Positions 34,251 to 63,846 of a stretch of 64,000 nt of DNA are shown one piece after another. Source of the DNA: Eledone cirrhosa (Eukaryota); NCBI GenBank assembly GCA_964016885.1, contig OZ024743.1, forward strand, positions 19,344,001 to 19,408,000. The letters are read 5' to 3'. How positions within the stretch are numbered: the first letter of the stretch is position 1; each line of letters opens with the position of its first letter. The notes under the pieces were generated by a model. That model did no database searches, was not told where the DNA came from, and saw nothing but the letters and a program-made list of their open reading frames with translations. A program made the position numbers and the translations under genes.

Positions 34251-34454
34251 TTCAACAAAAGAAAAACTTTTTGTTTAACTATTTCGCCTAAAGGCGTAGA
34301 ATATTTTGAGAGACTGACCAGATCAAAATTTGACCTGGCAGTCCTTCTACAAAATGGTACAAAAATTAAAGTTTACAAACAGGAATTTCTATAGAAATTT
34401 AAACAGAACTTACTCAGCAAGTTTCACGCGTGTATCCATCCCAGACATAGATAT

Positions 34455-35350
34455 GTTTCTTTTATTTGCCACCAGGGCATCAAAAGTGGGACAAGTACAA
34501 AGGGGGGAGTTTACACAAAAAGGCGTCCTCAATAAGGAGGAGGCAATAACAATGTATAAAAATAAAATAAAATATAACAAAAAATAAAATTTATAACAAA
34601 ATCCTCAATAGAGAGGAGGCGCCTTGGGGGGTCGCACACACCCCCGAAAAAAGTGTGCAACCCTTTTCCTCATGAGCACAGAGAGGGGGTGCTCCCTCGT
34701 TCCTTCCTCCTTTCCACCTACAGGCTTATGTAAAGAGAAGGCCCATTCACACGGGCCATTCTCGCCACTTTCACCCACCTTTCATAAAAACGACTGGGGT
34801 GGAGCACCTCTCTCTCCATCCTGATCCTTCTTCCGAAATGATATCGGAAGAAACGGACCAGTTGTTGGCCAGAGAGAAAGGTGCCTGACCTCAGTCCTTT
34901 CAGACGCGTCCACCATACAACTTCTTTCACCATGGCTATTACGCACAGAAACACCGCCTCTCCTTCATCTATGAAGGGTGGAGGCGGCTTGATCATTACG
35001 ATAGACTCGGTGGTCAACCGGATCGGTCCCACCCTTGACAGCAGTTGTTCGACATAGCCCCACAGATCGGCTACGCCCGAGCAGTGTACCAATGCGTGTG
35101 CAACGGTTTCCTCGTCGCACACGCATCTGGGACAGATCTTTTTGGCGGGGTCCCTACCCGGGCGCCTGTGTCTGTAGAGTTTTTCTCGGACGGGTAGAGC
35201 CCCTCGGTAGCACTGCCAGGTCAGGGACTTCTGGAAGTTGTCCATAGGTCCCGGGCTGAATGTCCTACCGAACAGGCTGGCCAGTTCGTCCTCCTCCATG
35301 TCTAGGGCTTCTCCGAGGGCGTCGTCGCACCTGCTGCGTACCAGCCCTCA
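34455..35350 (-). mobile_element. Tx1 copy B, 5'-truncated (ORF2 C-terminus + 3'UTR)
   Basis: ORF 34718-35299 matches the copy A C-terminus; truncation point abuts (GATA)n. Confidence 0.93.
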
Positions 35351-35377
35351 GAGATAGATAGATAGTTATATAGATAC

Positions 35378-35426
<49 letters not shown>
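35351..35426. repeat. (GATA)n spacer
   Basis: Direct reading. Confidence 0.95.
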
Positions 35427-35427
<1 letters not shown>

Positions 35428-35660
35428 TTCTTTATTAGCCACAAGGGTGCAACGAGAAAGGGGACAATACAAAGACATGCCGGGGATTTTACATACAGTC
35501 GTGTAAAAAATATAAAAACAAACAATTTCAACAATCGAAATCCCCAATAGGGGGGAGGCACCACAAATGGGTTGTTTAATACCCCGTCGATAGAACAACC
35601 CTCAACTCGAGGAGCGTGTTGTGCAAGTGCTCCTTTCTTCCTTTTGCTCTCTTCCTCAAC

Positions 35661-38600
35661 CTACAGGCTTATAAACAGAGAAGGCCCAATCACTCGGGCC
35701 ATTTTCGCTTCATTCACCCACCTTTCAGTAAATTTACTGGGGTGCAGTGCCTCTCTCTCCACCCTGATTCTCCTTCTAAAGTGATACTTAAAGAAGGGAA
35801 TCAATTGTTGTCCGGAGAGAAAGGCATCTGTCCTCAGTCCTCTCAACCTCGTCCACCATATAACTTCTTTCACCATAGCCACCGTACAGAGGAAAACTGC
35901 CTCTATTTCGTTTTTAAAAGAGTCTGGCGGTTTGATCCTTACTATGGACTCGGCAGTCAACTGTATTTGTCCCATACGCGACAGCAGTTGTTCTGCATAG
36001 TTCCACAGTTCGCTTACGCCCGGGCAGTGTACAATTGCGTGCAGAACTGTTTCAATGTCCTGCGGACATCTTGGACACGTCCTCTTGGAAGGATCCCTGC
36101 CAGGGCGTCCGTGCCTGTAGATCTTGTCACGAACCGGTAGAGTTCCTCGGTAGCACTGCCAGGCCAGGGACCTCTGGAAGTTGTCCATAGGTCCCGGGTG
36201 GAAAGTCCTACCAAACAGACTGGTGAGCTCATCGTCTTCGACGCCCAGAGTCTCTCCGAGCACGTCGTCGCCCTTGTAACGTACAACCCCTCTATAGAAT
36301 GTCGAAGTGGAGTCTCCACTGATTGCTGCGCCCGCCTGACAGAGGACTGTGAGCGCCTGAGCGCATTCAATGTGCCAGGCCCCCATCGTTTTCGGTCTTT
36401 TCTTCACCCAGGAGTGCAGCTCCGTTAGCGAGAGGAGCTGTGGGAAAGCCTGTCTCACAAACAGTGCCCACACCGGTTGGGGGTCGGTGAGGAATACCTG
36501 GAGCTGCCGCAGCCTCAGCGCATGTTTGCGCATCATCAGCCACGGCATTCCCAGCCCTCCGTTGGAAGGGTGCTGACAGCAGACGGATCTCCTCACCAGC
36601 GGAGCCTGCTTCTTCCACAGAAACTGGAAGAGCATGCGTTCCATCTTGGCGAGATGTTCACGGGGGCAAGGCGCGACAGTCAAGCAGTAGTAAATGACGG
36701 ACGCTATGAAAGTGTTCGCCACCTCCGCTCGACCTTTCAAGGACAGTTTGCAATCTGCCCACTTCTGAGTGAGTGCAAACACCTTGGCCGTGACCTCGTT
36801 CCAGTTTTTCTCCACCTCGAGGTCTGGACCGAACAAGACCCCGAGCAATTTCACCGGTCCTTCCGTCCAGCGTCCAACGACGCTGTCGGATGTCATCGGT
36901 TTGCCTCTCCACGTACCGAGTTGCAAACCGACAGACTTGTCTGGGTTTAGTTTGCTCCCGTCAGCGTTTCGTATTCTTTCAGTATGTTGCCGATCACCCC
37001 GATTTCCGAGGTGCTCGACACCATTACCGCAACGTCGTCGGCATAAGCCGACGCCGCTTTGCGCAGTCCCGGTTCTAGGGGGATGCCCTGCAACAGCTCC
37101 AATTTCCGCAGTAGTGGCTCTAGAGTCAATACATACAGAATGGAGGAGAGAGGGCGTCCCTGTCGAATGGAACGCGTGATTGCGAACGGCTCCGATAGGT
37201 AGCCGTTCACCTTGACCCTCGAGCAGATGCTGGTGTGCATCGCCTCGATCCATCCTCTGAACACGGGACCGAAACCGGCCGCCTTGAGAACCGCTTCCAA
37301 GTATCGATGGTCGACCCTATCGAATGCCTTAGACTGATCCAAGTTGATCAGAGCCCCACCGAAGCCGGGTTTACTACCCACCCTCTCTATGATGTATCGC
37401 TTGAGGTGGAGGTTGTCGTGTATGGACCTGGTCGGGATTGCACACGTTTGCGCTTTCCCTACCAGGTTCTCGACGACAAGCGCCAACCTCGTCGCTAGCA
37501 CCTTGGCCAAAATCTTTAACTCTGTGTTGAGCAGAGTTATGGGCGTGAAGTTGTTAATTTCGTCCCCCTTGTTCTCGTCTTTCCTGATCAGCGTTACTAC
37601 GCCCTTGCCTGCAGAACTGGGAATTCTCCCGTTCTGCTGCCAATTGCAGTAGACGGCTTCGAGGACGCCAGAGAACAAGTCCGGCATGCCTATGTAAAAT
37701 TCGTAGGGTAGACCATCTAGACCGGGTGACTTGCGTTTCCCGCAGCGGCCCAGAGCGTCCCGTATCTCAGTGTCCGTGATCGTTCTTTCCCAGAACTCGG
37801 CGTCGGTGTTCGAGAGACGCGGCAGGCCGTCGAGGTATGAACTAAAGTCCATTGCCCCGTTCGGCTCACCGTCGTTCTGCTCAAACAGTCGCGCAAAGTG
37901 CCGCTGAAAGGCCGCGCACATTTGCTTGGGGTCAAGTAGCACGCGTCCGTTTTGGTCTTTCAAAGACCGAATCGTGGACTTGTTGCCACTTTTTGCCTCC
38001 GCCACTCGGGCCCAGCTGACAGATTTCGCTCCTTCGTTTCATAGAGCACGTGTTTTGCTTCTGACCACGCAGCCTTCGTGTTTCGCATCGAAGAACTGGT
38101 CAAGTGCCGTTCTCGACGCTAACACTCTAGCTGCGTTGCCACCTCTAAGTGCCTCCTCTACCTTGGCTACTAGTTCTCTTTCTATTCTGTTTTTCTCTAA
38201 GGCTAACTCTCTGCTATACCATATCGATTCTATTCTAATTGCTTTCTTGAGAGAGTACCACCATCTATTGTTGACGATGGCTCCCGTTAACTGTTGCTTG
38301 ACTAGTCTACTTATCCGTTCACTGTAAGCTTTACGTGCCGGCAACGACACGTTCAGCTTCCAGTATCCGGGACCATGTCTATGTATTCTATCACGGTTGA
38401 CTAAGCAGACGACTAAGTTATGATCTGAATAGGCAACCATGTACATTCGTGGACAGCTTAACATCTCCTTGTCCCTTTCTCTAATGAAGAACCTATCTAA
38501 ATACGATCTAGATGTCCCACTGCGGTTTACCCACGTCCACTGTGGTGCAGTCGGGAAATCCAGTCGATACCTATCGGCCAGTTGGAATTGGCCGATTAAA

Positions 38601-39106
38601 GTTTTGAGGCTGTTGCACCCCGCTCTACTGGGACATGCTCCCACATAGTCCCATCGTGCATCTAGGATACCATTCCAGTCCCCCACTAAAAGTAAGGAGC
38701 GAGACGTTCCCAGAAAAGACTCTAGACGCTTAAAGAAGTCTGGCCGTGATTGCGATTGCCCGGTCGGGGCATAAACGGCCACCAGTCTGAAGGCTCCACC
38801 TCCAATACTGTTCACGTCTAGGACTACCAGTCTACCCTCCGGGTCCAAGTGTACTTGCTGTACTCCGACGTCCAGGTTCTTCCGAAACATAACAGCCACT
38901 CCACCTCCACCTCCTGGCTGACAGAGAGATGCGTAAATCTGAAAGTCGTCGAAGATGGGGGTTAGTTGCTGCCTGTTGTGGATTCTGGACTCGGTGATGG
39001 CTATCACATCCATACTGTGTGACCTAAGGTCGTTTAAAAGTTGGCCCTGTTTCCAGGGCATCCCTAGGCCACGCACATTCACGGTTCCAACTCGTAAACC
39101 AGCCAT
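35661..39106 (-). pseudogene. Copy C ORF2 (APE-RT-CCHC), stop and frameshift
   Basis: ORF pieces 38039-39106, 36947-38005, 35661-37253 carry the APE, YADD and CCHC motifs. Confidence 0.93.
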
Positions 39107-39149
39107 GTTGGTGAAGAAATGTTGGAGAAAAAGGACGAAAGGTGCACTT

Positions 39150-41030
39150 ACCTTTTCGTTTCCTGGAGATCGGGTTGTTCAATCTCCATTTGGGTGCTGG
39201 ATGGGTGTTGGGTGGGGTGGGGAAACATTTCAACAGGACGCGGTTGATGGCTTTGTGGCAGGGGTTGCCCACGTCCTGTGAAAATTTAATTTTTAAGTCT
39301 TTATAGGTTTCCATAGAAACCCTTATAAGTTTAAGGTGTGGAGACGATTCTGCCTTGACGAAAGTTTTGCCCTCCGTCTCCACCTTGGGGTTTTGGGAGA
39401 TGACCTCCATCAAACTCTTGTTGTTTGTGTTGATGTATGCGTATTGTTGTTTGTGTTTTTGTTGTGTTGTTTTAGTTTGTTGTTCATCCGGGAGTTTTCT
39501 TTTTATGGTGGGTGCTTGTGTTTGGGGTGGTGTTGGTGCTGGTTTTGCTGATAGGGGGATGTTTGACTGTGGTGTTGTTTGTGTCTGTGGTTGTGTGTTG
39601 GTGTTGGTGATTGGAGTTTTGGGGGTTTTGTGGTGTCTCTTTTTTTGTTTTTAGATTTCCGCGGTTCTCCCTCTTTTTCACTTAAAGAAGGAGAAGCAGC
39701 TTCATCCGTCGATGAATAATCATCGTCAGGTGTGTGGGGTAAGGGTATGTTGTGTGGTGGTGGTGGTGTTTCGGTATGTGTGTTTGTGGTAGTGTTTGAT
39801 GGAGTGGGATGGAGTGGGGATGTGTTCTTCAGGGGTGTTTTTTCTGTTGTTGTTGGTTGAGTGTCTGTTTGTTTTGGTGTGGTTGCTCGTTTCGTCTGTC
39901 GTTGTACTTGTGGTGGTGGTGGTGGTTGTTTTGGTGTTGGTGTTGGTAATAGCGTTTTTTTTATGATGTTGTTGTTGTGTGTTTGTGGACAAGAGGCTTT
40001 TAGCTGAGATGTGCTACCACAGCGAAAGCAATGAAATTTTCGTCATTCTACCGAAATGTTTATTTTGTTGTTATTATCAATAACGACTCTTTCGGGTATT
40101 TAGGAGATTCTCTCCGGTTTCGTTTGCAACAGAATCTCAAAATCGGTGCCCGCCCACCTTTGTAGAATAGATTTTCGTATCGAAAGTATTATGTATGTTT
40201 CTGGCTCTACGAAGCCAGCCAAGATCCACCAGATGTTAATGCTTGGGGGTATGTTTTTTATTTTTATTTTTTGTGTCCTTTTCCCCATGTATGTAGGGAA
40301 AAAGGTGTATGCTTTTGACACTATTGGTGTCACAGAGTTTTTTGGGGCGAGTGCCTCACTTTTAAACAGTACGGAAACACTTCCGTACTGTTTTCCTCGC
40401 TGGAGAAAATCGACATTTCCTATAATCTCCTTGAAAGAATCTTCTATATCTGCTTGATTAACAAATGTCGGTGTTCTTGACGAATTTGACACAGTCCTAA
40501 AGGTGACTGATCGGCGGTTTGTGTCTTCCTTTATTTCAAGGGGTGAGTTAATTCTAAACCCACCTCTTTCTTCGAAAGTTACAAATGTTCTCCCTTGCTG
40601 GAGCATATCTCTTGCGTTGGAGATATCAAGATTTATAAAATCTTGTTTCTTGTTCACTGTGTCAGCGAAAGACATTTTCTTTTTTTGTGTGGTGGTGTTG
40701 TTGATAATGATGTTATCGTTGTTTGAAATTTTATGTGTAGATGTATCTGTAGAGTTGTTGATGTCTTTTTCATGTGTATGTATGTCAATGGGTTTTTTTG
40801 CTGTGTTTTCCTGTGTGTTATTGTCATTTTTCTCCGCTTCGGCGGTAGAAATCGTAAAATTTTCAAATGTTGATATAATTTTTTTCTTTTATGACAGTTG
40901 TATCTATGGCAACGTCCATAGCAGCAGAAGCAGATATAACGTTAATATATGCCTCTTTCTCTCTCTTTTCTCTATTAATGTTCTCCAGCGTTCTAGTGTT
41001 GCTCAAGTTTTTTACTTTGTAAAATCTGAT
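39150..41030 (-). pseudogene. Copy C ORF1, disrupted
   Basis: SFAD..FFPTYMGKRTQKIKI core and KAINRVLLK C-terminal block; start uncertain. Confidence 0.8.
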
Positions 41031-41214
41031 ATTTTAAAACAAATTCTTTGAAATAAAATGTTCGCCCCTACAGGGGCGAAACATAGGATTACCACCCAGC
41101 TGACAATTCAGCTTGGGGGTTAATCTACAAAGTGTTGTATTTTTTTCAAACAATTAGATCGGTTTTTTGCATAGAAATTAACAAAAAACTTACCGGCGAT
41201 ATTCCACACGTCAG

Positions 41215-41216
41215 AC

Positions 41217-41311
<95 letters not shown>

Positions 41312-41377
41312 AAGTTAGATAGATAGATAGATAGATACATACATAGATAGGTACATACAGAGATAGATAAAGATAGA
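41215..41377. repeat. (GATA)n spacer
   Basis: Direct reading. Confidence 0.95.
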
Positions 41378-41592
41378 TTTCTTTATTTACCATAAAGGCA
41401 TAAAAAGAAGGGACAAATACAAAGGGGGAGTTTACATATAATCGAGTAAAAAGGGTGTAACATGAAAATAATCGAAAATAACCTCAAAATGGAGGGGACG
41501 TGATGGGGGTTGCACACACCCCCGAAAAAGTGTGCAATCCTTTGCCCGGGGAGCACATGGAGAAGGTGCTCCCCTCTCCTTTACTTCTTTAC

Positions 41593-44500
41593 CTACAGGA
41601 TGGTATACAGAGAAGGCCCATTTACACGAGCCATTCTCGCCACTATCACCCACCTTTCATAAAACTGCCTGTGGCCAAGCACCTCTCTCTCCATTCGTAT
41701 CCTTCTTCCGAAGTGATATCGGAAGAAGTAGACCAGACTATGGCCAGAGAGGAAGTTGCCTGACCTCAGACCTTTCAATCGTGTCCACCAAACAACCTCT
41801 TTCAACATGGCTATTACGCACAGAAAAACCGCCTTTGCTTCCTTTGTGAAGAGGGGGGGGGGGGGGGGGCGGTTTGATTGTCATCACGGACTCGGCGGTC
41901 AATTTAATCGGCGCCACCCGCGACAGCAGTCGTTCGGCGTAGCCCCACAGATCAGCCACGCCCGGACATTGCACCAATGCGTGCGCAACGGTTTCTTCGT
42001 GACGCACGCATCTAGGGCAAATCTTTTTTTGAGGGATCCCTGCCCGGGCGCCCGTGTCTGTAGAGCCTCTCTCGAACGGGTAGAGCCCCCCGGTAGCACT
42101 GCCAGGCCAGTTACTTCTGGAAGTTGTCCATTGGTCCTAGGCCGAAAGTCCTACCGAACAGGCTGGCCAGTTCGTCTTCTTCCATGTCCAGCGACTCTCC
42201 AAGGGTGTCATCGCTCCTGCTAGCCACCAGCCCTCTATAGAATGATGAGGTGGATTCTCCACCGATGGCCTGGTCCGCTTGCCAGAGAGCCCTGAGCGCC
42301 CGAGCACACTCAGTGTGCCAGTCTCCCAGTTTTCCGGATCTTTGCTTGACCCAGGACTGTAGCTCGGTGAGCGAGACGAGTCTCGGAAAGGCTCGTTTCA
42401 CGAACGGAGCCCACACCGGTTGACCAGTGAGGAATACATGTAGGTGCCGTAGCCTTAATGCGTGCCTACGCATCATCAACCACAGCATCCCCAGCCCTCC
42501 TTTCGAAGGTTGTTGGCAGCAGATGGATCTTCTCACCATAGGAGGACGCTTCTTCCAAAGAAATTGGAAGAGCATGCGTTCCATGGTGGTGAGTGTTTCC
42601 TTAGGGCAAGGCACGACAGTCAGGCGGTAGTAAGTGACGGACGCTATGTAAATGTTCGCCACCTCCGCCCGGCCTTTTAGGGACAGCTTACACTTGGCCC
42701 ATTTCTGGGTTAGTGCAAACACCTTGTTCGTAACCTCGTTCCAGTTCTTTTCCACCTGGAGGTCCGGTCCAAACCAGACCCCAAGCAACTTTACCGGGCC
42801 CTCCGTCCAGTGTCCGACGACACCGTCAGGAGGCATCGGTCTGCCTCTCCACGTTCCGAGTTGCAGCCCGATGGATTTTTCCCGGTTCAGTTTCGCTCCT
42901 GACAACCTTTCGTACTCCTCCAGTAAGGTACCGATCGCCTCGATCTCCGAGTCGGTTGATACCATTACTGTTACGTCATCGGCGTAGGCCGACACCGCTT
43001 TGCTCAATCCTGGTTCCAGGGGGATACCCTGCAACAACTCCAACTTCCTCAGTAAAGGCTCGAGAGTCAATACGTACAGAAGGGAGGAGAGAGGGCACCC
43101 CTGTCGAATGGATCGTGTGATTTCGAACGGCTTCGAAAGGTAGCCGTTCACCTTGATCCTAGAACAGATGTGGTTGCTATGTAGGGAAGTGATCCAGCCT
43201 CTGAAAACAGGACCGAACCCAGCCGCCGCTAGCACCGCATCCAGGTAACCATGGTCGACCCTATCGAAGGCCTTAGACTGATCCAAGTTGATCAGGGCCC
43301 CACCGAAGCCGGGTTTGTTGCCAACCCTCTCTATGATGTATCGCATGAGGTGGAGGTTATCGTGAATGGACCTGGATGGGATAGCACATGTCTACGCATC
43401 TCCCACCAGGCCACCCACGACAAGCGCCAACCTCTTTGCTAACACCTTGGCCAAAATCTTTAACTCTGTGTTTAGCAGGGTTATGGGCCGAAAATTATTT
43501 ATACTATCCCCCTTGTTCTCGTCCTTCCTCACCAGCGTGACTACGCCCTTGGCTACAGAACAAGGAATTCTCCCGTTCTGCTGCCAATTGCAGTAGACCG
43601 CTTCGAGGAGTTCGGAGAAGAAGACTGGCATTGTTAAATAAAGTTCGTAAGGTATACCATCGAGACCTGGAGATTTGCGTCTGCTGCATTGGCTCAGCGC
43701 ATCTCCGATCTCATCAGCCGAGATTGGTCCCTCGCAGGACTCTGCCTCTTCGTTCGAGAGACGCGGCAGGCCGTCGAGGTATGGACCGAAATCCACGCCC
43801 CCGCCCGGACCCTCGCCCCCCCCCCGAACAATCGGGCAAAGTGCCTTTGAAAGGCCTCGCACATCTGCTTAGGCTCCCGGATCACCCGTCCATCTTCGTC
43901 TTGCAACGACCGGATGGTGGATCGATTTCCACTCTTAGCTTCTGTCACGCGGGCCCATCCAACGCCTTTGGCCTCCTCATTACCTAGAGCACGTATTTTA
44001 CTTCGAATGACTCAGCCTTCGTGCTTTGCATCGAAAAACTGGTTCAAGGCCGTCCTCGATGCCAGCACTCTGGCCACATCTTCGCTCTTGATTGACTCTC
44101 CTAATTTACCTGTTAATTCTTTCTCGTTTCTATTCCTATCGGCAGCTAACATCTTGCTATAACTTATTGATTCTGTTCTAATTTCTCTTTTGAGAGATGC
44201 CCACCATCGGTTGTTGACGATTGCACCCGTCAACCTCTCCTTAACTAATCTGCTAATCCGGTTTCTGTAAGTCTCTTTTGCCGGTAAAGACAAATTAAGT
44301 TTCCAGTAACCGGGACCCTGTCTATGTGTTTTCTCGAGATTGACCACGCAGGTCACTAATTTGTGATCCGTGTAGCCAAACGTGCGCATTTCTGGACAGC
44401 TTAATATGTCCCTATCCTTACTTCTAACTAAGAATCTATCTAAGTACGATCTAGATTGACCACTGTGGTTTCTCCAAGTCCAGGTAGGCACAGTTGGAAA

Positions 44501-45044
44501 ATCTAGTCGATATCTATCGACCAAGTTAAAACGGTCGAGTAACCCCTTGAGGCTGTTACACCCCCCCTCTATTAGGACATGCTCCTGCATAGTCCCAACG
44601 TGCATCCAGGATGTCATTCCAATCCCCCGCTAGAAGCAGGGAACGCGACGTTCCCAGAAAAGTCTCCAAACGCTGGAAGAAGTCGGGCCGTTCAGCTCCG
44701 AAAGGGGAGTAGACGGCGACCAGTCTCAAGGCCGCACTTTCACTACTGCCAACGTCTAGCACCAACAAACGACCCTCCGGGTCGGAGTGCACAACCTGTA
44801 CGGCAAGACCCAGGTGTTTTTGCAGCAGTACGACAACCCCACCCCCACCTCCAGGTTGACAGAGAGATGCATGCACCTCAAAGTCATCGAAGGTGGGGGC
44901 CAGCTGCCGCACGACGCTGATTCGAGTCTCACAGATAACCATTACATTTATACTACATGACCTGAGGTCATTTAGAAGCTTTGCTTGCTTCCAAGTTGAG
45001 CCCAGGCCACGTGCATTCAAACATCCTACTCTTAACACATCCAT
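41593..45044 (-). pseudogene. Copy D ORF2 (APE-RT-CCHC), disrupted
   Basis: LAGDWN, YTDH, RQGCPLS, AYADDV; several stops and frameshifts. Confidence 0.93.
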
Positions 45045-47009: not shown

Positions 47010-47242
47010 TTCTGTTAGACGATTGAAATTTTTTACACAAAATTTTTTAAAACAGGTTTTTCACATCTAGGAGGGGTAAAGATGAGCTGACCCACCGCCT
47101 GACAGTTCAGACGGAGGGTCAAGCTACACAATTGTATCAAAATTAAGTTTGAACTCACAAAATTTCCTCAATAAATTTGAACAAAACTTCTGTGCGAAGT
47201 GAATGACATCCACACTGTAGAACAGACGACAGCTAGATTGAC

Positions 47243-47315
47243 AGAGATAGATAAAGATAGATTGATAGAGAGATAGATAGATAAATAGATAGATAGATGG
47301 TTGGATATATAGATA
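47243..47315. repeat. Degenerate (GATA)n spacer
   Basis: Direct reading. Confidence 0.9.
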
Positions 47316-47688
47316 TGTTTCTTTATTAGCCACAGGGGCACAAAAGAAGGGGACATATACAAGGGGAAGTTTACATACAATAAAAACGTGTAAAATGTTA
47401 TCACAAATACAATTTAAAAAGTTAGTCGATTTTCCCCAATAGGGGGAGACAGTTCATATGGGTAACACATGCCCCCGAACAAATGTGCAACCCTCAACTC
47501 CAGGAATACGAAGAGTTTGTACTCCTTTCCTCTTCTCCTCCTTTCCTCAACCTACAGGCTGATATAGAGAGAAGGCCTATTCACTCGGGCCATTCTCGCC
47601 ACTTTCACCCACCTTTCATAAAACTTGCTGGGGTGCAGCACCTCTCTCTCCATCCGGATTCTTCTTCCAAAGTGGTATTTGAAAAAAA
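47316..47688 (-). mobile_element. Tx1 copy H1, 5'-truncated
   Basis: ORF2 end KYHFGRRIRMERE..SLYISL plus a 3'UTR closely matching copy F; short GATA tract at 47689-47707. Confidence 0.92.
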
Positions 47689-50745: not shown

Positions 50746-50789
50746 CTTGGTGAAGAAGAGTTAGGGAGAGAAAAGGCAGAAACACTTAC

Positions 50790-52647: not shown

Positions 52648-52858
52648 TTTTTAAAATTAAAGTGTTTTGCAAAACGTTTTCGAAAATATGTTGGATGTTT
52701 TTGCCCTGAGGGGCACGATATTTTGGCAGACTGACAGATCAAAATTTGACCTGTCAGTCCCTCTACAAATTGGTATAAAAATAAAAGTTCACAATGACGA
52801 ATTTCTAAAGAAATTTAAACATAATTACCGAGCAAGTTGAACACATGTGTCCATCCCT

Positions 52859-52916
52859 AGATAGATAGATAGATAGATAGATAGATGGAGAGATAGATAG
52901 ATATATATATAGATAT
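52859..52916. repeat. (GATA)n spacer
   Basis: Direct reading. Confidence 0.93.
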
Positions 52917-53155
52917 GTTTCTTTATTAGCCCCAGGGGCAGAAAAGAAGGGGACAAATACAAAGGGGGAAGTTTACATACAATAAAAACGTGTAAAATGT
53001 TATCACAAATGGAATTTAAAAAGTTAGTCGATTTTCCCAAATAGAGGGAGACAGTTTATATGGGTAACACATACCCCCGAAAAAAATGTGCAACCCTCAT
53101 CTCCAGGAGTACGAAGAGTTTGTACTCCTTTCCTCTCCTCCTCCTTTTCCTCAAC

Positions 53156-56100
53156 CTACAGGCTGATATAGAGAGAAGGCCCATTCACTTGGGCCATTCT
53201 CGCCACTTTCACCCACCTTTTATAAAACTTGCTGGGGTACAGCACCTCTCTCTCCATCCTGATTCTTCTTCCAAAGTGGTATTTTAAAACAAGAATCAGT
53301 TGTTGGCCGGACATAAAGGTGTCTGACCTCAGCCCTTTCAACCTTGTCCACCATACAACCTCTTTCGCCATAGCTATCACACAAAGGAAAACCGCTTCTC
53401 CATCGTTTTTGAAGGAGGGTGGCGGTTTGATCATGACAATGGATTCGGTGGTCAACTGTATTGGTCCCACCCGCGACAATAGTCGTTCTACATAGCCCCA
53501 CAGGTCATTGAACCCCGGGCAGTGTATGTATGCGTGTACGACGCTTTCTTCGTCTCGCACGCACCTCGGACAGATCTTTTTTGCAGGGTCCCTGCCCGGG
53601 CGCACATGTCTGTAGAGCTTGTCTCGAACTGGTAGAGCTCCTCGGTAGCACTGCCAGGCCAGGGACTTTTGGAAGTTGTCCATCGGTCCCGGGCGGAAGG
53701 TCCTATCGAACAGACTGGCCAGTTCATCTTCCTCTACTTCTAGAGTTTCACCGAGCGCGTCGTTGCACTTGCTGCGGATAAACCCTCTATAGAATGACGA
53801 AGTGGAGTCTCCACTGATCGCCGGGTCCGGCTGCCAGAGAGCTGTGAGCGCCTGAGCACATTCGATGTGCCAGTCGCCCATTTTCCTCGGTCTTTGCTTG
53901 ACCCAGGACTGCAGCTCGGTCAGCGAGACGAGTCGTGAGAATTCTCGCCTCACGAACGGCGCCCACACCGGTTGTCCGGTGAGGAATACGTAGAGATGCC
54001 ACAGCCTGAGCGGGTGTTTGCGCATCGTCAACCACGGCATCCCCAGCCCTCCGTTAGAAGGGTGTTGGCAGCAGATGGATCTTCTCACCAAAGGAGCCCG
54101 CCTCTTCCAAAGGAATCAGAAGTGCGCGCGTTCCATTTTGGCGAGCGTTTTGGCTGGACAAGGCACGACGGTCAAGCGATTTGCGAGGCGCTCGACACCA
54201 TTACTGTCACGTCGTCGGCGTAGGCCGACGCCGCTTTCCGCAGTCCCGGTTCCAGAGGGATGCCTTGCAATAGCTCCAACTTCCGCAGTGGTGGCTCGAG
54301 AATCAGTACGTACAGAAGGGAGGAGAGAGGGCATCCCTGTCGAATGGATCGCGTAATATGGAACAGCTCCGAGAGGTAGCCGTTCACCTTGACCCTTGAG
54401 CAGATGTTGCTGTTGTGCATTGCAGCAATCCAGCCCCTGAACACGGGTCCGAAGCCTGCCGCCTCGAGCACCGCATCCAGGTAACGATGGTCAACCCTAT
54501 CGAAAGCCTTAGACTGATCCAAGTTGATCAGGGCCCCACCGAAGCCGGGTTTACACCCTACTCTCTCTATGATGTATCGCATGAGGTGGAGGTTGTCGTG
54601 TATGGACCTGGTCGGGATTGCGCATGTCTGCGCTTCTCCCACCAGGTTCTCGACGACAAGCGCCAGCCTCTTTGCCAACACCTTGGCCAAAATCTCTAAC
54701 TCCGTGTTTAGCAGAGTTTTTTGGCCGGAAGTTGCCTTTGTCATCCCCCTTATTCTCGTCCTTCCTGATTAGTGTGACCACGCCCCCGGTTACAGAACTG
54801 GGAATTCTCCCGTTCTGTTGCCAGTTGCAGTAGACCGCTTCCAGGAGACCGGAGAATAAGTCCGGCATTGCTACGTAAAATTCGTAGGGTAGACCGTCGA
54901 GACCTGGAGATTTGCGTTTGCCGCATTGGCTCAGCGCGTCCCCTATCTCAGCGTCTGAAATCGGCTTTTCGCAGAAATCGCCTCGCTCTCCGAGACTCGC
55001 GGTAGGCCGTCGAGGTATGAACCGAAATCCATAGCCTCTCCCGGCGCGCCGCCCCTCTCGAACAGTTGAGCAAAGTGCCGCTGAAAAGCCGCACACATCT
55101 GCTTCGGCTCACGTTTCACGCGTCCGTTTTGGTCCTTCAAAGACCGAATCGTGGACTTGTTGCAACTTTTTGCCTCCGTCACTCGGGCCCAGCTAACAGC
55201 TTTGGCTCCCTCGTTTCCTAGAGCACGTATTTTGCTCTGACAACAAAGCCCTCGTGCTTTGCGTCGAAGAACTGGTCCAAGGCCGTTCTCGTTGCTAGCA
55301 CGCTGGCTACGTTGCCACTTCTAATTGCCTCTTCTACTTTATCTACCAGTTCCTTCTCGGTTCTATTTCTATCTAACGCTAATTCTTTACTAAAAACTAT
55401 CGAGTCTAATCTAACTGCCCTCTTGAGAGAGTACCACCATCGGTTATGACAATGGCCCCTGTCAAGTGCTGTTTAACTAAAGTGCTAATCCGTCTACTGT
55501 AGGCTGTGCTTGTCGGTAACGACAAGTTCAGCTTCCAGTAGCCGGGTCCTTGTCTATGGGTTCTATCAAGGTTGGCCATACAGGTCACTAGTTTGTGATC
55601 TCAATAGGCAACCATGAATATTTGTGGACAGCTTAACATGTCCCTATCCTTATTTCTAACTAGAAACCTATCTAGGTACGATCTAGATGTTCCGCTACGA
55701 TTACTCCACGTCCACAGTGGCGCAGTCGGAAAATCTAGTCGATATCTATCGGCCATGTCAAATCGGTCGATTAACTGTTTGAGGCTGTTACACCCCCCTT
55801 TATCTGGACATTCTCCCACATAGTCCCAACGTGCATCTAGGATTCCATTCCAGTACCCCATTAAAAGCAAGGAGCGGGACGTTCCCAGAAAAGTCTCTCG
55901 ACGTTTGTAGAAGTCCCGGATGGGGCATATGCGGCCACCAGCCTGAAGGCTCCACCTTCACTACCGTCAACGTCTAGGACCACCAGTCGACCCTCCGGGT
56001 CCAGATGTACCGTCTGTGTTACGAGGCCCAGGTGTTTCCGCAGTGAAACGGCAACTCCGCCCTCACCCCCCGGTTGACAGAGAGATGCGTAGATCTCAAA

Positions 56101-56262
56101 GTCATCGAAGATGGGGGCCAGCTGTCGCTCGCTGTGGATCCTGGACTGGCAAATGGCTACCACATCCATACTGTGCGACCCGAGGTTGTTTAAGAGTTTG
56201 CCCTGTTTCCATGGCATCCCCAGGCCGCGTACGTTCACACATCCAACTCTTATATTGGCCAT
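53156..56262 (-). pseudogene. Copy F ORF2, disrupted
   Basis: APE, RQGCPLS, AYADDV and CPRC..HAYIHC in fragments. Confidence 0.92.
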
Positions 56263-56295
56263 GTTGGTGCTGAAAAGTTAAAAGAGGAAAAGAGA

Positions 56296-58206
56296 TCACT
56301 CACCCTTCGTCTCCTGGGGACCAGTCCGCACGATTTCCATGGGGGTGTTGGAGGGGTTGTCTGGATGGGAGGTGGTTTCTGGCGGGGTGGGGACGGAGAT
56401 GTTTGGTGGGGTGGGGTCTGGTGGGATGGGGGTGTCTGGGGTGGGGAGACATTTGAGAAGGACGCGGTTGAGTGGTTTCACGCAGGAATTCCCCACATCC
56501 TTCTCAAATGTTTCTTTTAGGGACCTATAAGTTTGTATAGGGACCCTAATCAGTTTTAGGTTCATTCTTTTGCTATTTTTAATAGAGTGGGCGAAAGTTT
56601 TCCCTTCGGTTTTCACCGAAGGGTCGTTCGTGATGGTCTCCATTAGTGTTTTGTTTTCAGTGTTTATGTAAGTGTAAGTGTAATTTTCTTGTGTTGTGTT
56701 TGTTTTTGTCTGCAGTTCTTGTGTGCGCTTTCGTTTTGTTGTAGGTATTTTGTTTTCAGGAGGTGGGGGGTTTTGTTTGTGATGTTATTATAGTTTGTGT
56801 CGGTGGTTGTATGTTTGTGGTAGTGTTTGCTGGTTTTTTGCATTTGTGATGTCTTTTCTTTCTTTTCGAGCGATGAGGTTCTCCCTCGTCTTCACTGGGT
56901 GATGGCGAGATAGCCTCATCTGTTGTATCGTCTGTGTGATTGGGGAGGGGTATGTCTTGGGGAGCTGTTGTGTCTGTATGTGATTTTGCAGTGCTTTTAG
57001 GTGGAGTGGGGTTGGGTGGGACTGTGTTTGTTGTGGTTATTTTTGTGTGCTGGTGTTGTTGTTGTGGTGGTGTTGGTGGTTGTGTTGTTTTGATGGGTGT
57101 CGGCAGAAGAGCCTTTTTTTATCATTAATTTAGGACAGGAAGCCCTCAGGTGACCCCTGCTAAAGCAATGGTAACATGAAGGCCGCCTACCCTCAACCAA
57201 AAAGTTTATGTAGGTGAGTCCGCCCAGGAGTACACGTTGTGGGATCATAGCTATTCGCTCTGGGCTCATTTGCACCAGAACTTCAATGCTAGTCCCATTG
57301 AATACATCTCTGGGGGACTTTCCTATTGACAGTATTCTGTCTTCATCAAAATTGATCAAGCCGCACATTATCCACCATATGTTCACCTTTGGTGTGACAC
57401 TCGTGATTCTGATCTTTTGTGTCCTTTTTCCCATGTATGTAGGGAAAAAGGTGTACAGGTTGGATACAATTGGCGACACAGAGTAATTTTTGGCCGTCAA
57501 TTGATCCTTCATGAGTACCGAAATACTCCCAAAAAGTTTGCTTCTTTGAATGAATGCAATATCATTCATTGAATTTTTGAAAACCTCAATTTCTTTCTGT
57601 GACAATTGGACTGGTTTTCTGGTAGAATTGGAAACTGTCCTAGAAACTATCGTTTTGAGAGCAGTTTCCTTGCAAATTTCTACCGGAGAATTGATGCTGA
57701 AAGCACCATTTTTTTCGAAAGTGACATATCTCCTAGCGTCCTTTAAAAGTTGTTCAGCATTTGTTATGTCGAGATATATCAATTCCTCCTTTTTTTTTAA
57801 CTTTCTCTGCAAATGAGATTTTTGGTTTCTTTGTGGAATCCGTGTTGTTGGTGTTGTCATTATTGTTGTTATTGTTGTTGTTATTCTTGTTGTCACCGAT
57901 GTTGGTATTATTCGTATTTTCCTTGGTGTTGTTGTTGTCTTTGATGCTGCTGTTATTGGTGTTGTCTTTATTTTTTTCTTTGTTGTTGTTATCATTGTTG
58001 CTTTTATCATCATTATTGGTGTTGCGGTTATTTTTGTTGTCATTGAATTTTTTGGTGTCATTTGTGTTGTTTGGATATGAATTCGTTTTTACATTTTTAT
58101 TTCATCTTTCCATCTCTATAGTATCTAGTGGAGAAGACGTTGTTGACTGCGAGCATTGTAGTCTTATCGCCTCTCCACCACCATTATCGTTGGACGCAGC
58201 GTTCAT
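56296..58206 (-). pseudogene. Copy F ORF1, disrupted
   Basis: GRRPSCYHCFSRGHLRASCP; KPLNRVLLK. Confidence 0.85.
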
Positions 58207-58425
58207 AACGTAATCAAACTTTTACAATATTTTTTGCAAGATTCGATGGAGAAATTTTTTTTTTCAAATGGATATTCCGCCCCCGTAGGGGCGAAATTGA
58301 TTTGACCACCACCTGAAGGTCCAGCCGGGGGGTCAAGTTACACAATGATATAAAATTTAACTAAAGAATCACATTTTTTTCTTACATAAATTAACGGAAA
58401 CTTCTCCGCGAAGTTACACACGTCT

Positions 58426-58436
58426 GATAAAGAGAG

Positions 58437-58528
<92 letters not shown>
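58426..58528. repeat. (GATA)n spacer
   Basis: Direct reading. Confidence 0.95.
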
Positions 58529-58530
<2 letters not shown>

Positions 58531-58756
58531 GTTTCTATTTATTTGCAACGAGGGCACAAAAGAAGGGAACAAATACAAGGGGGCGGAGTTTACATAAAGG
58601 AAAGAGTAAAAAATAAATAACAAATATAAAATTAACAATACAGTTCTCAATAGGGAGGAGGCGTTTTGGGGGTTACACGCACCCCCGTAAAAGTGTGCAA
58701 CCCTTTTCCTTAGGAGCACAGAGAGGGCGTGCTCCTTTGCACTTCCACCTTTCCAC

Positions 58757-61700
58757 TTACAGGCTGATAAAGAGAAAAGGTCCATTCACACGGGCCATTC
58801 TCGCTCCTTTCACCCACCTTTCATAAAACTTGCTGGGGTAGAGCACTTCTTCCTCCATTCTGATCCTTCTCTTAAAATGGTATTTAAAGAAAAGGACCAG
58901 TTGTTGGCCGGGGAGAAAGTGTCCGACCTCAGCCCTGTCAAACGTGTCCACCATGTAACCTCTTTCACCATGGCTATTACACAGAGGAAGACCGCCTCTC
59001 CTTCATTTTTGGAGGGGGGAGGCGGCTTGATCGTTACAATGGAGTCAGTGGTCAACCGAATTGGTCCCACCCGTGACAGCAGTCGTTCTTCATAGCCCCA
59101 CAGATCGGCAACGCCCGAGCAGTGTACCAATGTGTGCGCAACGGTTTCCTCGTCGCGCACGCATCTGGGACAGATTTTTTCGAGGAGTCCCTACCCGGGC
59201 GCCCGTGTCTGTAGAGCTTTTCTCGAGGTGCCGTAGTGTTAATGCGTGTTTACGCATCAGCAGCCACGGCATCCACGGCCCTCCTTTCGAAGGTTGTTGA
59301 CAGCAGATGGATCTCCTCAACAAAGGAGCCCGCTTCTTCCAAAGGAATTGGAAGAGTGCGCGCTTCATGTTGGTGAGCGTTTCCCTTGGGCAAGGCATGA
59401 CGGTCAAGCGGTAATAGATGATGGACGCTCGATCTCTCAGGGATAGTTTGCATTCCGCCCACTTCCGTGTCAGCGGAAAAACCCTGTTCGATACCTCACC
59501 CCAGTTCTTATCCACTTCGAGGTCTGGCCCTAACCAGACCCGAGCAACTTCACCGGGTCCTCCGTCCAACGTCCGACTACGCCATTGGAGGCCATCCGTT
59601 CGACCTCCACTCGCCGAGTGGCAAGCCGATTGACTTGTCCCGGTTCAGTTTAGCCCCTGTAAACGTTTCGTATTCCTCCAGTAAGGTGCTGATCACTCCG
59701 ATTTCCGAGGCGGTTAATAGCATTACTGTCACGTCATCGGCGTAGGCCGACACCGCTTTCCGCAATCCCGGTTCCAAAGGGATGCCCTGTAACAACTCCA
59801 ACTTCCGTAGCAGTGGCTCTAGGGCCAATACATACAGAAGGGAGGAGAGAGGGCATCCCTGTCGGATGGACCGCGTGATTTCGAACGGCTCCGAGAAGTA
59901 GCCGTTCACCTTGACCCTAGAGCAGATGCGGCTGATGTGCATGGCAGTGATCCAGCCTCTGAAAACGGATCCGAAACCTACGCAACTAGCACCGCATCCA
60001 GGTAACGATGGTCGATCCTATCGAACGCCTTGGATTGATTCAAGTTGATCAGGGCCCCACCAAAGCCGGGTTCGTTCCCAACACTCACTATGATGTATCG
60101 CATGAGATGGAGGTTGTCGTGAATGGACCTGGACGGGATGGCGCATATCTGCGCATCTCCCACCAGGTTGCCCACGACAAGCGCCAACCTCTTTGCTAAC
60201 CCATTGGCCAAAATCTTTAACTCTGCATTTAGCAATGTTATGGGCCCAAAATTACTTATTTCATCCCCCTTGTTCTCGTCCTTCCTCACTAGCAAGACTA
60301 TGCCCTTGGTCACAGAACAGGGAATTCTTCCGTTCTGTTGCCAGTTGTAGTAGACCACTTCGAGGAGATCGGAGAACAAGTCCGGCATACTTAAATACAG
60401 TTCGTATGGAAGACCATCGAGGCCCGGAGATTTACGTCTGCCGCATTGGCTCAGCACGTCCCCTATTTCAGCAGCTGAGATAGGCCTCTCGTAGGACTTC
60501 GCCTCCTCGTCCGAAAGACGCGCCAGGCCGTCGAGGTATGGACAGTGGTCCACATCCCCATCTGGCCCCTCGTCGCTTCCGAACAATAGGTCAAAGTGCC
60601 TTTGAAAGGCCTCGCACATCTGCTTAGGCTCAAGGATCACCCGTCCATCCTGTTCTCGCAAATACCGGATAGTGGATCTAATCCCACTTTTGGTTTCTGT
60701 CACGCGGGCCCAGCTAACAGCTTTGATCCCCTCGTTTCCCAGAGCACGTATTTTGCTTCGGACAACGCAGCCTTCGTGTTTTGCGTCGAAGAACTGGCCT
60801 AAGGCCGTTCTCGACGCTAACACTCTGGCTACGTCGCCGCTTCTAATTGCCTCTTCTACACTATCTACCAACTCCCTTTCCTTCCTATTTCTATCTGAAG
60901 CAAACTCCTTACTAACTCCTATTGAAGCTACTCGAATCTCTCTTTTGAGAGAGCCCCACCACCTGCTGTTGATGATGGCGCCCGTTAACCGCTCCTTAAC
61001 TAATGTACTAATCCGGTTCCTGTAAGCTTTACCTGCCGGTAAGGAGAAGTTGAGCTTCCAGTAACCGGGTCCCTGTCTATGCGTTCTATTAAGGTTGACC
61101 ATGGAGGTCACTAACTTGTGGTCTGAATAGCCAACCATGAGCATTTTTGGACAACTTAAAAAGTCCCTATTCTTATTATAACTAAGAACCTATCTAGGTA
61201 CGATCTAGATTGACCGCTATGGTTTCTCCAAGTCCAGGTTGGCACAGTCGGAAAATCTAGTCGAAATCTATCGGCCAGGTCGAATCGGCCGATTAACCCC
61301 TTGAGGCTGTCACAACCCCCTCTATCAGAACATGCCCCTACATAGTCCCAACGTGCATCTAGGATACCATTCCAGTCCCCACTAAAAGCAAGGAGCAAGG
61401 AGCAAGGAGCGGGACGTCCATAGAAAAGTCTCCAGACGATGGAAGAAGTCCAGCCGCGTTGACCCAAAAGGGCCGTAGACGGCGACCAGCCTAAAAGCTC
61501 CGCCTTCACCACTGCCAAGGTCCAGAACCACTAGTCGACCCTCCGTTCCAAGTGTACCGTCTGTGTACCGATGTTTTTGCAGCAGAACTACAACCCACCC
61601 CCACCTCCGGGCAGACACAGAGATGCGTGCATCTCAAAGTCATCAAAGGTGGGGGCTAGCTGTCGCTGCTGATCCGGGCCTCGCAAATAACCATCACATT

Positions 61701-61796
61701 TATACATCGTGACCTGAGGTCATTTAGAAGCATTGCTTGCTTCCAAGGTGAGCCCAGGCCACGCGCATTTAGACAACCTATTCTCAACACAGCCAT
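58757..61796 (-). pseudogene. Copy G ORF2, disrupted
   Basis: GDWNGILD, YSDH, KSPGLDGLPYE, RQGCPLS, AYADDV. Confidence 0.92.
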
Positions 61797-61824
61797 GTTG
61801 GTGGTAAAGAGAAAAGGTACTTAC

Positions 61825-63610
61825 CTCTCTGCGTCCCGCACAATTTACATGGGAGTGGGGGATGGTTGTTGGGTGGGGTGGTGGTTTGTGGAAGTGTAGG
61901 GGCATCAGTGTGTGTTGGGGTTGGGGTGTTTGGAGCTTTGTGGGTGTCTCGGAGGAGGACATTTTTTTAGGAGGACAGGGTTAATGGGTCTAACGCAGGG
62001 GGGCCCCACGTCCTCTTTAAAAGTGTATTTTAACATTTTGTAAATGTCCATTGGAGCTTTTATCATTTTTAGATTGCTTGTGTGAAATTCGAACCTTCGG
62101 TTTTTATTAAGTTGTTATTATAAATAACGTTTAACAGTTTTTTTGTTTATTGTATTTATGTAAGTATATGCATATTTTTCTTTTTATGATGTTTTTTGTG
62201 TTGATGTCTGTGTTATATCTTGGGGAAGGGTTGTCTGACGACGAAAGGGGTCGTCTTCCGTATTCGAGGGGAGGGGTTCATTTTTGGCTCGTGTTTGTGG
62301 TGTGGGTGATATTGTATTTGTTTTCTGTGTGGGCGGGATGGGTGAGATTGTTTTCAGTTGTGTTTTAACTTGTGGTGTTAGTTGTTTTTGTGGTGATGGT
62401 GGTGGTGGATGTTGTGTTGGTAGTGTTGTAGTTGTTGATGTGGGCAAAATCGGTGTTTTTTTGTTTGCTTAGGAACAGGCAACCCTCAGGTGACCTCTGC
62501 CACCACAGAGGTAACAACGGGTCGTCTACCCTCCACTGTGAGGTGTAAGTAGGCAAGCCCATCCAGCAATATGCGGTCGGGTATCCTAGCAATTCGTTCT
62601 GGCTGCATTTGCACCAGAACTTGCAGGCTAGTTCCACCGAACACGTTGCTGAAAGACTTACCTACCGAAATTACTGCATCCTCTTTCAAGTCGAGGAGGC
62701 CACACAGTACCGCCCAGAAATCAATATCTGGATCGATTATGTGTATGGTCAATCTTTGTGTTTTTCTTCCCAAATAAGTGGGGAAGAAGGTAAATAAGGG
62801 GGACACAATTGGGGCCAGGGAATGTTTTTCGGTCGTCAATTTATCTTTCATTTGGATGGATAGACTACCGTAGAGTCTATCCTTCCGAATGAATACGTTT
62901 TTCAGATGATCTTTTAAAGCCAGTTCAATCTATGTCTGTGTGAGTTGTACTGGCTTTCGGGTTTTGTTTGATATTGTCCTATAAATAATAGTTTTTAAGC
63001 TATTTTCCTTTTTTAGCTTTGGGGGAGAATTTAAAGAAAATAGACCATTCTCCTCCAAAGTTATATACTTCCGTGCATTTTCCATTTGCTGGGCCATGTT
63101 GGAAATGTCAATAGGTTCATACACAATGGGTTTTTTTTATGGTTTGAGCGAACGTCATTTTGTTCGCCACCTCTATGTTTATATTTGTCGAAATGAGGTT
63201 GTTTTCTTTTTTTTTTGTTGTTACAATTATCATTTTTTGTTGTGTTTGTGTTATTTATGTTGGTGTATGCGTTCACATTATTTTTCCGTTGGGGTTAGAC
63301 TCCATTTCTTCAAAAAGTTCACTTATATTTTCAGTATCCGAGAGACTTGTAGTCACTGCTACTACCTCTCTTTCACCTTTGCTGGTGGGTGTGGCACCGT
63401 GAAAAGTCGAAACGGCATCCATTAATGTTGGCAATTTCTCCGAGTCAATTTTTTTCACATATTTTTCATTAAGGTTAGGCTCCATTTTTTCTAAGTTTCT
63501 AATAATCATTTTTCTTTCAGTGGAGAGGGTTGTTGCCTCCGCTACCCGCTCTCTTTCGGTTTGTTTAGTGGGCGTCTCATCGGTACCTGTGGTAATGGCT
63601 TCCATTACCA
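61825..63610 (-). pseudogene. Copy G ORF1, disrupted
   Basis: FFPTYLGRKTQRL, TVEGRRP followed by a frameshifted knuckle; start uncertain. Confidence 0.8.
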
Positions 63611-63846
63611 CTAGCGTAGAGACAATCACAATATTTTTAGGATCAAAAATGTCACCCCAAAAGGGGTGAAATAAATTAACCCTAATGTCCGAAGACCCAG
63701 GCAAGGGGGTTAATTAACACAATAACGCAAGAATACAGGCACACACTTACTGTTAACCTGTAATATATCCAATAATCGACGAGCCGATGTGAAACACGTC
63801 TATACCATCCGGAGATAGATAGACAGATATACAGATAGATAGATAT

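What the first reader, a model, noticed from the sequence alone, without database searches (positions are those of the whole stretch)
34275..63811. Conserved, covarying multi-hairpin RNA structure in the Tx1 5'UTR
Seen in the first about 170 nt of copies A (34275-34442), C (41055-41214), D (47060-47225), E (52695-52858), F (58265-58425), G (63645-63811): sequence differs but the order of helices is kept. Small 5' hairpin (D ACTTC-GCACA-GAAGT; F AACTTC-GCGGA-GAAGTT; G ATCGGC-TC-GTCGAT), an AT-rich hairpin (A AATTTC-TATA-GAAATT), a long hairpin (C CCCCCAAGCTGA-ATTG-TCAGCTGGGTGG; D CCGTCTGA-ACTG-TCAGGCGG; E GACTGACAGGTCAA-ATT-TTGATCTGTCAGTC) and a GC hairpin (C TTCGCCCCT-GT-AGGGGCGAA; G TCACCCC-TTTT-GGGGTGA; weak in D). 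Several mismatches are G-U in the element-sense strand, favouring an RNA role. Established: R2 and some RTE/L1Tc elements use 5' HDV-like ribozymes to release themselves from longer transcripts. Inference: this may be a processing, translation or packaging element for copies embedded in read-through array transcripts. I could not fit it to the HDV, hammerhead or twister consensus.
Basis: partly seen in the sequence, partly recalled or inferred. Interest (0 to 1): 0.75.

Follow-up and report, generated by a model that had tools for sequence, protein, structure and literature searches.

The report
Hairpins around a LINE leader's mini-intron
Jumping genes of one group, in what is probably an octopus-like animal, keep two fold-back stems at their front end around the end of what looks like a tiny intron, and the stems likely slow its removal so that whole RNA survives to be copied; they do not match known self-cutting RNAs.

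Summary
The six 'copies' are the 5' ends of six different Tx1-like LINE families stacked in a (TATC)n tract. All nine quoted strings are present. Across 12 diverged leaders (33-80% identical), only the long hairpin (H4) and the GC hairpin (H5) co-vary: matched arms beat swapped arms in all 1000 neutral tree simulations. The small 5' hairpin is marginal and the AT-rich one unsupported. G-U outnumbers A-C 18:8. No ribozyme match. All 12 family-majority leaders carry a splice donor with a YAG 59-69 nt downstream. H4 starts at that acceptor or encloses it, with the branch point. Six of 12 also carry a perfect Drosophila-LINE downstream promoter motif. No spliced retrocopy was found (0 of 726 in family D). 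Best reading (0.45): an internal promoter plus a retained mini-intron whose splicing the hairpins damp, as in Penelope. Splicing itself was not seen, and no RNA data were available. The scan noted the hairpins and splice signals before on other pieces of this genome. The covariation test, constant intron length and promoter motif are added here. New variant of a known kind; interest 0.45.

The parts
28731..64000 (-). Head-to-tail stack of Tx1-like APE-RT LINEs of different families separated by (TATC)n; continues beyond the window
34430..34437 (-). A: position of the DPE-like motif (degenerate)
34408..34413 (-). A: donor-like GTAAGT (site 1), in the 3' arm of the small hairpin
34308..34347 (-). 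A: long hairpin H4; its first base is the G of the TAG acceptor, 67 nt from the donor
   Evidence: end counted from the fold
34285..34296 (-). A: GC hairpin H5 (short)
41206..41213 (-). C: DPE-like motif, 7 of 8
41188..41193 (-). C: donor-like GTAAGT (site 1)
41086..41127 (-). C: TAG acceptor (69 nt from donor) and long hairpin H4
41061..41080 (-). C: GC hairpin H5, holding a second pyrimidine-rich YAG
47204..47239 (-). D: fixed 5' end (47239) and DPE-homologous motif (5 of 8) starting at +29
47186..47200 (-). D: small 5' hairpin H1
47153..47158 (-). D: donor-like GTGAGT (site 2)
47085..47125 (-). D: long hairpin H4 enclosing a branch-like TTGAC (47118-47122), pyrimidines and the CAG acceptor (47099-47101), 60 nt from the donor
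47059..47080 (-). D: GC hairpin H5 (weakened by a G>T change in this copy)
52823..52852 (-). E: DPE-position motif and site-1 donor (GTAAGT in the family majority, changed in this copy)
52725..52765 (-). E: TAG acceptor and long hairpin H4
52702..52715 (-). E: GC hairpin H5
58418..58425 (-). F: DPE-like motif, 8 of 8
58367..58372 (-). F: site-2 donor (GTGAGT in the family majority, changed in this copy)
58302..58336 (-). F: long hairpin H4 enclosing TTGAC and the CAG acceptor (58313-58315)
58275..58296 (-). F: GC hairpin H5
63794..63801 (-). G: DPE-like motif, 8 of 8
63745..63750 (-). G: donor-like GTAAGT (site 2)
63674..63715 (-). G: long hairpin H4 with a TAG (63682-63684) 69 nt from the donor
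63652..63671 (-). G: GC hairpin H5
39146..39151 (-). C: second donor-like GTAAGT at the end of ORF1 (likewise in A, D, E, F, G)
35661..35663 (-). C: ORF2 stop TAG that also reads as a pyrimidine-rich acceptor

Best explanation
The first 170-200 nt of these Tx1-like LINE families hold two co-varying hairpins at the 3' end of an intron-like segment, and the hairpins likely act in the RNA as a brake on splicing. Shown: H4 and H5 keep pairing while sequence turns over; each family majority has a donor and a YAG 59-69 nt later; H4 begins at or encloses that YAG; a DPE-like motif sits 20-22 or 51-53 nt before the donor; no spliced retrocopy was found. Inferred: Pol II starts about 28 nt upstream of the motif; part of the RNA is spliced and translated; H4 (with H5 over a second acceptor, and weak H1/H2 over the donor) slows splice-site recognition so that unspliced RNA remains to be reverse-transcribed, and the intron is inherited.
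For: Covariation of H4 and H5: 0 of 1000 tree simulations each, repeated by permutation on family majorities; G-U 18 vs A-C 8. Donor plus YAG at 59-69 nt in 12 of 12 majorities. On single copies 11 of 12; 10 or more was reached by 0 of 7500 simulations at the fitted rate shape and 10 of 7500 at a generous one. The donor sits at one of two sites and the acceptor moves with it: site 1 with 67-69 nt (A, E, C, P, Q, M), site 2 with 59-60 nt (D, F, I, N, H) or 69 (G). One I-like copy (L363) has site 1 and lacks site 2. Branch-like YTRAY at -21 in D, F, I, N, at the foot of H4. Donor predicted paired 0.80 vs 0.64 for other GT 6-mers. D family: 0 spliced among 726 copies with the exon-1 motif, against about 2% for human L1 (PMC5860796, passages). 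Penelope has the same layout: internal promoter, RGACGTGY, a 75-nt intron 46 nt from the start (PMC2377424, passages).
Against: No spliced molecule was seen in any form. Absence of spliced retrocopies fits the brake, but equally fits no splicing at all. Acceptor AGs are not more paired than other AGs (0.82 vs 0.76, p 0.26). In site-1 families H4 lies mostly downstream of the acceptor. H has only a short H4 and A only a short H5. The 55-75 nt window and the motif rules were set after seeing the data; N needs GTAGGT and F has two candidates. The donor shift may be a single event on the leader tree. GTRAG could be a protein site in DNA, as argued for the L1 donor (PMC5860796). The stricter pair-type measures were not significant. 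H5 is missing from 6 of 6 checked M-family copies whose match stopped short; 22 of 40 hits stop there.
Confidence: 0.45

Rival explanations
1. H4 and H5 are RNA handles for the element's own proteins or for translation control of ORF1 (RNP assembly, 5' integration, scanning), independent of the splice signals, which serve U1 binding or intron-aided expression.
For: H4 and H5 co-vary and favour the sense strand; they lie 30-60 nt before the ORF1 ATG; in site-1 families they would stay in a spliced message; acceptor masking is not above background.
Against: No conserved loop sequence. In five or six lineages H4 encloses the branch, pyrimidines and AG at a fixed 59-60 nt from the donor. H5-less full-length copies are common in family M.
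Confidence: 0.3
2. The inverted repeats and GTRAG act in DNA as parts of the internal promoter, and RNA folding is incidental.
For: A DPE-like motif is present (8 of 8 in 6 of 12); antisense strands fold nearly as well; the human L1 donor is kept as a RUNX3 site (PMC5860796, passages).
Against: Stem sequences are replaced while pairing is kept, which a sequence-reading factor would not favour; G-U exceeds A-C 18:8; donor-acceptor spacing is kept.
Confidence: 0.12
3. The leader is a self-cleaving ribozyme of unknown fold that frees the element from read-through RNA.
For: HDV-like ribozymes do this in R2 and other LINE clades (PMC3774820, passages); 5' ends are sharply defined; a new fold would escape my descriptors.
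Against: No Rfam match; strict HDV-like 0 of 12, relaxed 2 of 12 vs 24 of 180 shuffles, no hammerhead core (descriptors recalled, no positive control); the strong helices lie 100 nt or more from the 5' end; the first 30 nt differ most between families; a promoter motif offers another source of the 5' end.
Confidence: 0.06
4. An ancestral palindrome persists without selection.
For: All leaders share one ancestor; RNAalifold consensus is weak.
Against: Neutral simulations from four real leaders never reached the observed native pairing or arm specificity of H4 and H5 (0 of 1000). The simulations lack indels, recombination and slippage.
Confidence: 0.07

Closest known systems
Tx1 clade LINEs: Xenopus Tx1; microsatellite-targeting Kibi (TC)n, Koshi (TTC)n, crocodilian (TTCC)n/(TTTC)n families (PMC4494074, passages and section 15)
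   Same: Two ORFs, APE endonuclease + RT + zinc finger; 38% RT-region identity to the Xenopus TX1 protein; insertion in a microsatellite.
   Different: Target is (TATC)n. No 5' structure, intron or promoter motif for Tx1 appeared in the passages read or in my searches.
Penelope of Drosophila virilis (PMC2377424, passages)
   Same: Internal promoter with RGACGTGY, short 5'-UTR intron close to the start, intron kept in genomic copies.
   Different: Different retroelement class; splicing shown there, not here; no hairpin over the acceptor described in the passages.
Human L1 5'-UTR splice donor and SpIREs (PMC5860796, passages)
   Same: Conserved donor in a LINE leader; authors raise sequestration in RNA structure as a possibility.
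   Different: L1 leaves about 2% spliced retrocopies, here 0 of 726 in D; here the intron length is held at 59-69 nt across a donor shift.
Drosophila jockey, I, F, G, Doc internal promoters (consensus and +29 to +36 position from PMC1636488, passages)
   Same: 8 of 8 match in 6 of 12 families; homologous 5-of-8 motif at +29 from D's fixed start.
   Different: In the other families the motif is only about 6-17 nt from the boundary, so the start would fall in the target repeat; activity untested.
R2 HDV-like 5' ribozymes (PMC3774820, passages)
   Same: Structured RNA at the 5' end of a site-specific non-LTR element.
   Different: No double pseudoknot or catalytic core found.

Membership tests
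Tx1 clade LINE | ORF2 with APE endonuclease, RT and C-terminal zinc finger; ORF1 with zinc knuckle | tested here: met
   Pfam PF03372, PF00078, PF13966; CCHC knuckle read in ORF1 translations
Tx1 clade LINE | RT groups with Tx1 in a clade-wide phylogeny | tested here: inconclusive
   Only named LINE hits are TX1 proteins at 37-38%; no tree with other clades was built
Tx1 clade LINE | Target preference | tested here: met
   5' ends abut TATC-like tracts in nearly all listed copies
HDV-like ribozyme | Nested double pseudoknot with P1-P4, L3 and catalytic C | tested here: not met
   Rfam none; strict descriptor 0 of 12 (recalled descriptor, no positive control)
HDV-like ribozyme | Self-cleavage | not testable with these tools
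   needs an in vitro assay
Hammerhead, twister, pistol ribozymes | Conserved core motifs | tested here: not met
   Rfam none; crude recalled motifs 0 of 12
Spliceosomal (U2-type) intron | GT donor, YAG acceptor, branch-like motif, workable length | tested here: met
   12 of 12 donor + YAG at 59-69 nt; branch-like YTRAY found in 9 of 12
Spliceosomal (U2-type) intron | Removal seen in RNA or in retrocopies | tested here: inconclusive
   No spliced retrocopy in D, A/E, C/K pattern searches; no RNA run on record to test
Inr-DPE internal promoter of LINEs | RGWCGTKY motif | tested here: met
   8 of 8 in F, G, Q, I, N, P; 7 of 8 in C; degenerate in A, E, D, H, M
Inr-DPE internal promoter of LINEs | Motif at +29 from a mapped start and needed for transcription | not testable with these tools
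   Spacing fits only D's fixed end; no start site mapped

The most novel reading that the evidence does not exclude
These LINEs balance spliced and unspliced RNA as retroviruses do: a hairpin-gated mini-intron, with a second intron spanning ORF2, yields an ORF1 message while whole RNA is copied. Transcription starts inside the (TATC)n target, so the target repeat supplies the start site and the RNA carries a few target repeats that prime clean 5' joining.
Probability: 0.22. Interest if true: 0.72.

Novelty: new variant of a known kind. Interest (0 to 1): 0.45.

Why it matters
LINEs copy themselves through RNA and should lose introns. A lineage that keeps a mini-intron at constant length, with a structure over its acceptor, would show how a LINE can use host splicing and still pass on the whole element. 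Little appeared in my searches on how Tx1 elements are transcribed. A promoter motif whose start falls in the target repeat would give microsatellite targeting a functional payoff and might explain the many 5'-complete copies. All of this is testable with small reporters and long-read RNA.

Tried and rejected
Rfam scan of 28-64 kb: 4 matches at E<=5, none on a leader, none at gathering score. Ribozyme descriptors: nothing above shuffles. Sequencing runs: no RNA holder listed. Contigs of three runs of unknown kind were laid on family D: no joints; run X4 has no cover on the first ~170 nt, but its kind is unknown and contig breaks can be explained by variants 30 nt downstream, so this is not used as evidence. 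Spliced-retrocopy patterns: D 0 of 7 non-GT hits with 719 intact; A/E 0 of 7; C/K 0 of 4 and 0 of 9, one locus shared. No intact-copy count was made for A/E or C/K; F, G and the other families were not tested; exact patterns miss mutated copies and some exon starts. ORF2-spanning intron: 0 and 3 hits, none reading into the 3' exon in the matched letters. ORF1 tree as the null tree: rejected because it disagrees with the leader groups; the leader's own tree was used. No ancestral leader was available, so simulations start from real leaders. Junction uniformity (variable in D, 21 types in 30 copies; more uniform elsewhere) is biased by query overlap, and the unbiased recount was noisy and inconclusive. 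A step in TATC content at the predicted start is gradual only. Hairpin-linked deletions: 12 gaps in 73 copies, too few and partly misaligned to test. Metagenome scan for other hosts: 3 distant loci at 23-24%, not examined. A proposed fifth hairpin before H4 has no folding signal (1 of 21).

Full report
Setting. From 28.7 kb to beyond the window end lies a head-to-tail stack of about 5.8-kb minus-strand elements and fragments separated by (TATC)n. ORF2 carries APE endonuclease, RT and zf-RVT domains. The RT region is 64% identical to an Argonauta protein and 38% to the Xenopus TX1 protein, so these are Tx1-like LINEs in a probable cephalopod (inference). I took 30 copies per family; 80 of these 180 have another element's 3' end within 400 nt upstream.

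Sampling. To avoid choosing leaders by their hairpins, I fetched 135 neighbouring stretches and located 5' ends through ORF1. This gave further families (H, I, J, K, M, N, P, Q) and three leaders of a sister lineage in (ATT)n. Twenty-one leaders were aligned by sequence. Twelve were used as lineage representatives, 33-80% identical; the other nine are near relatives of these, and the ATT-lineage leaders were left out of all tests. Family majorities for Q, I, N, P, M and H rest on 4-12 copies.

The observation. All nine quoted strings are present, but some owe their look to private changes. The long hairpin H4 and the GC hairpin H5 fold better than shuffles (z<-2 in 14 and 16 of 21); the small 5' hairpin H1 and the AT-rich H2 mostly do not (3 and 4 of 21). 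Each family's 5' arm pairs better with its own 3' arm than with another family's: H4 -18.8 vs -12.5 and H5 -14.1 vs -11.4 kcal/mol, with no such effect in a control segment. Against site-independent evolution on the leader tree, started from four real leaders, 0 of 1000 runs reached this for H4 or H5, 47 for H1 and 174 for H2. On family majorities a plain permutation gave p<0.00002 for H4 and H5, 0.03 for H1 and 0.007 for H2 with shifted windows, without tree correction. Against this: RNAalifold kept only 7 pairs; two of five pair-count measures were not significant and a one-column slide scored nearly as well, partly because A-type leaders pair in a register shifted by one. G-U exceeds A-C 18:8 in H4+H5, with 37-38 other mismatches: a modest lean to the sense RNA.

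Not a known ribozyme. Rfam gave nothing on the leaders. Recalled descriptors found no strict HDV-like fold and no hammerhead core in 12 majorities; relaxed HDV-like hits (2 of 12) matched the shuffle rate (24 of 180). R2 ribozymes need a double pseudoknot at the cleavage site (PMC3774820, passages); here the strong helices are simple hairpins 100 nt or more inside. An unknown fold is not excluded.

Splice signals. Every majority has a donor-like GTRAGT (GTAGGT in N) at one of two sites and a YAG 59-69 nt later (12 of 12). Site-1 families (A, E, C, P, Q, M) have TAG at the foot of H4, 67-69 nt on. Site-2 families (D, F, I, N, H, G) have the donor about 32 nt later and the YAG inside the hairpin, 59-60 nt on (69 in G), with a branch-like motif at -21 in D, F, I and N. 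Neutral simulation rarely keeps this (0 and 10 of 7500), though the rules were set after seeing the data. H5 holds a further pyrimidine-rich YAG in many leaders but not in G, I, N or Q. Donors are predicted paired more than other GT 6-mers (0.80 vs 0.64); acceptors are not (0.82 vs 0.76). A second donor lies at the end of ORF1 (58 of 72 rows by a strict rule, several misses being offsets), and the ORF2 stop reads as an acceptor. I checked these two after reading an earlier scan note.

No spliced copies. If spliced RNA were copied, intronless elements should exist, as for human L1 (about 2%; PMC5860796, passages). Family D has 719 copies with the intact donor and 7 with changes, none spliced. 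A/E and C/K searches found only point changes, small indels or unrelated breaks. This fits suppressed splicing, spliced RNA that is not copied, or no splicing.

Promoter motif. Drosophila LINE promoters share RGWCGTKY at +29 to +36 (PMC1636488, passages), as does Penelope, whose 75-nt intron starts 46 nt after the start site (PMC2377424, passages). Six of 12 majorities match 8 of 8 and C matches 7 of 8; where the motif is recognisable it lies 20-22 nt (site 1) or 51-53 nt (site 2) before the donor. In D the aligned motif matches only 5 of 8 but starts exactly at +29 from the first fixed base. In the others it is about 6-17 nt from the boundary, so the start would lie in the TATC tract (inference). 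In R2, carried target sequence goes with uniform junctions (PMC3774820, passages). D's junctions are variable, but my unbiased recount was inconclusive.

Mechanism and verdict. Most likely (0.45) the leader is an internal promoter plus a retained mini-intron, and H4, helped by H5, damps use of the acceptor so that unspliced RNA remains for reverse transcription. Covariation, motif positions and the lack of spliced copies are shown; transcription start, splicing and the brake are inferred. A protein-binding or translation role for the hairpins is the main rival (0.3).

Literature and prior notes. Eight searches listed no paper whose title or abstract opening describes a Tx1 5' structure, intron or promoter. 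I read passages of PMC4494074 (plus section 15), PMC5860796, PMC2377424, PMC3774820, PMC1636488 and PMC13282606 (13 recently active L1-Tx1 families in Octopus vulgaris; no UTR text); no supplements. Repbase entries and subscription papers were not searchable. Earlier scan notes on other pieces of this genome report the hairpins, the splice signals and GATA targeting; a word search of the notes for the promoter motif found none. Class: new variant of a known kind. Interest 0.45.

Noticed in passing
tree; e.g. window A and E leaders, L248 and L318: Leader groups and the ORF1 tree disagree (A, J, E share a leader but not ORF1; the two M copies likewise), suggesting leader swapping or recombination between families.
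   Followed up: partly
L248, L389-L394 vs L318, L383-L388: Family M: the same deletion of H5 between short direct repeats in 7 copies; 22 of 40 hits stop at that point. The deleted copies do not form one clade in a weak tree, so it may recur by slippage across the folded hairpin.
   Followed up: partly
L245, L283, L316, L184: A sister Tx1 lineage sits in (ATT)n tracts; its leaders also show a donor-like motif near +31-36 and GC hairpins before ORF1.
   Followed up: no
window 39146-39151, 35661-35663 and equivalents: Donor at the ORF1 end and acceptor coinciding with the ORF2 stop, followed by a purine-rich stretch: a possible ORF2-spanning intron. No retrocopy lacking ORF2 seen.
   Followed up: partly
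G000:C1:348917507-348929426; window 47059-47239: Family D is young (40 best hits about 100% identical over 250 nt) and forms same-family tandem arrays at about 5.8-kb spacing.
   Followed up: no
window 47212-47239: D's extra 5' segment looks like decayed TATC/TGTC repeats that became part of the element.
   Followed up: no
L165:1-330, L180:1-330: Two loci share the same chimera: an F element joined within ORF1 to an N-type leader lacking its first ~35 nt.
   Followed up: no
window 47245-48460: Three short 5'-truncated element ends are stacked between D and E.
   Followed up: no
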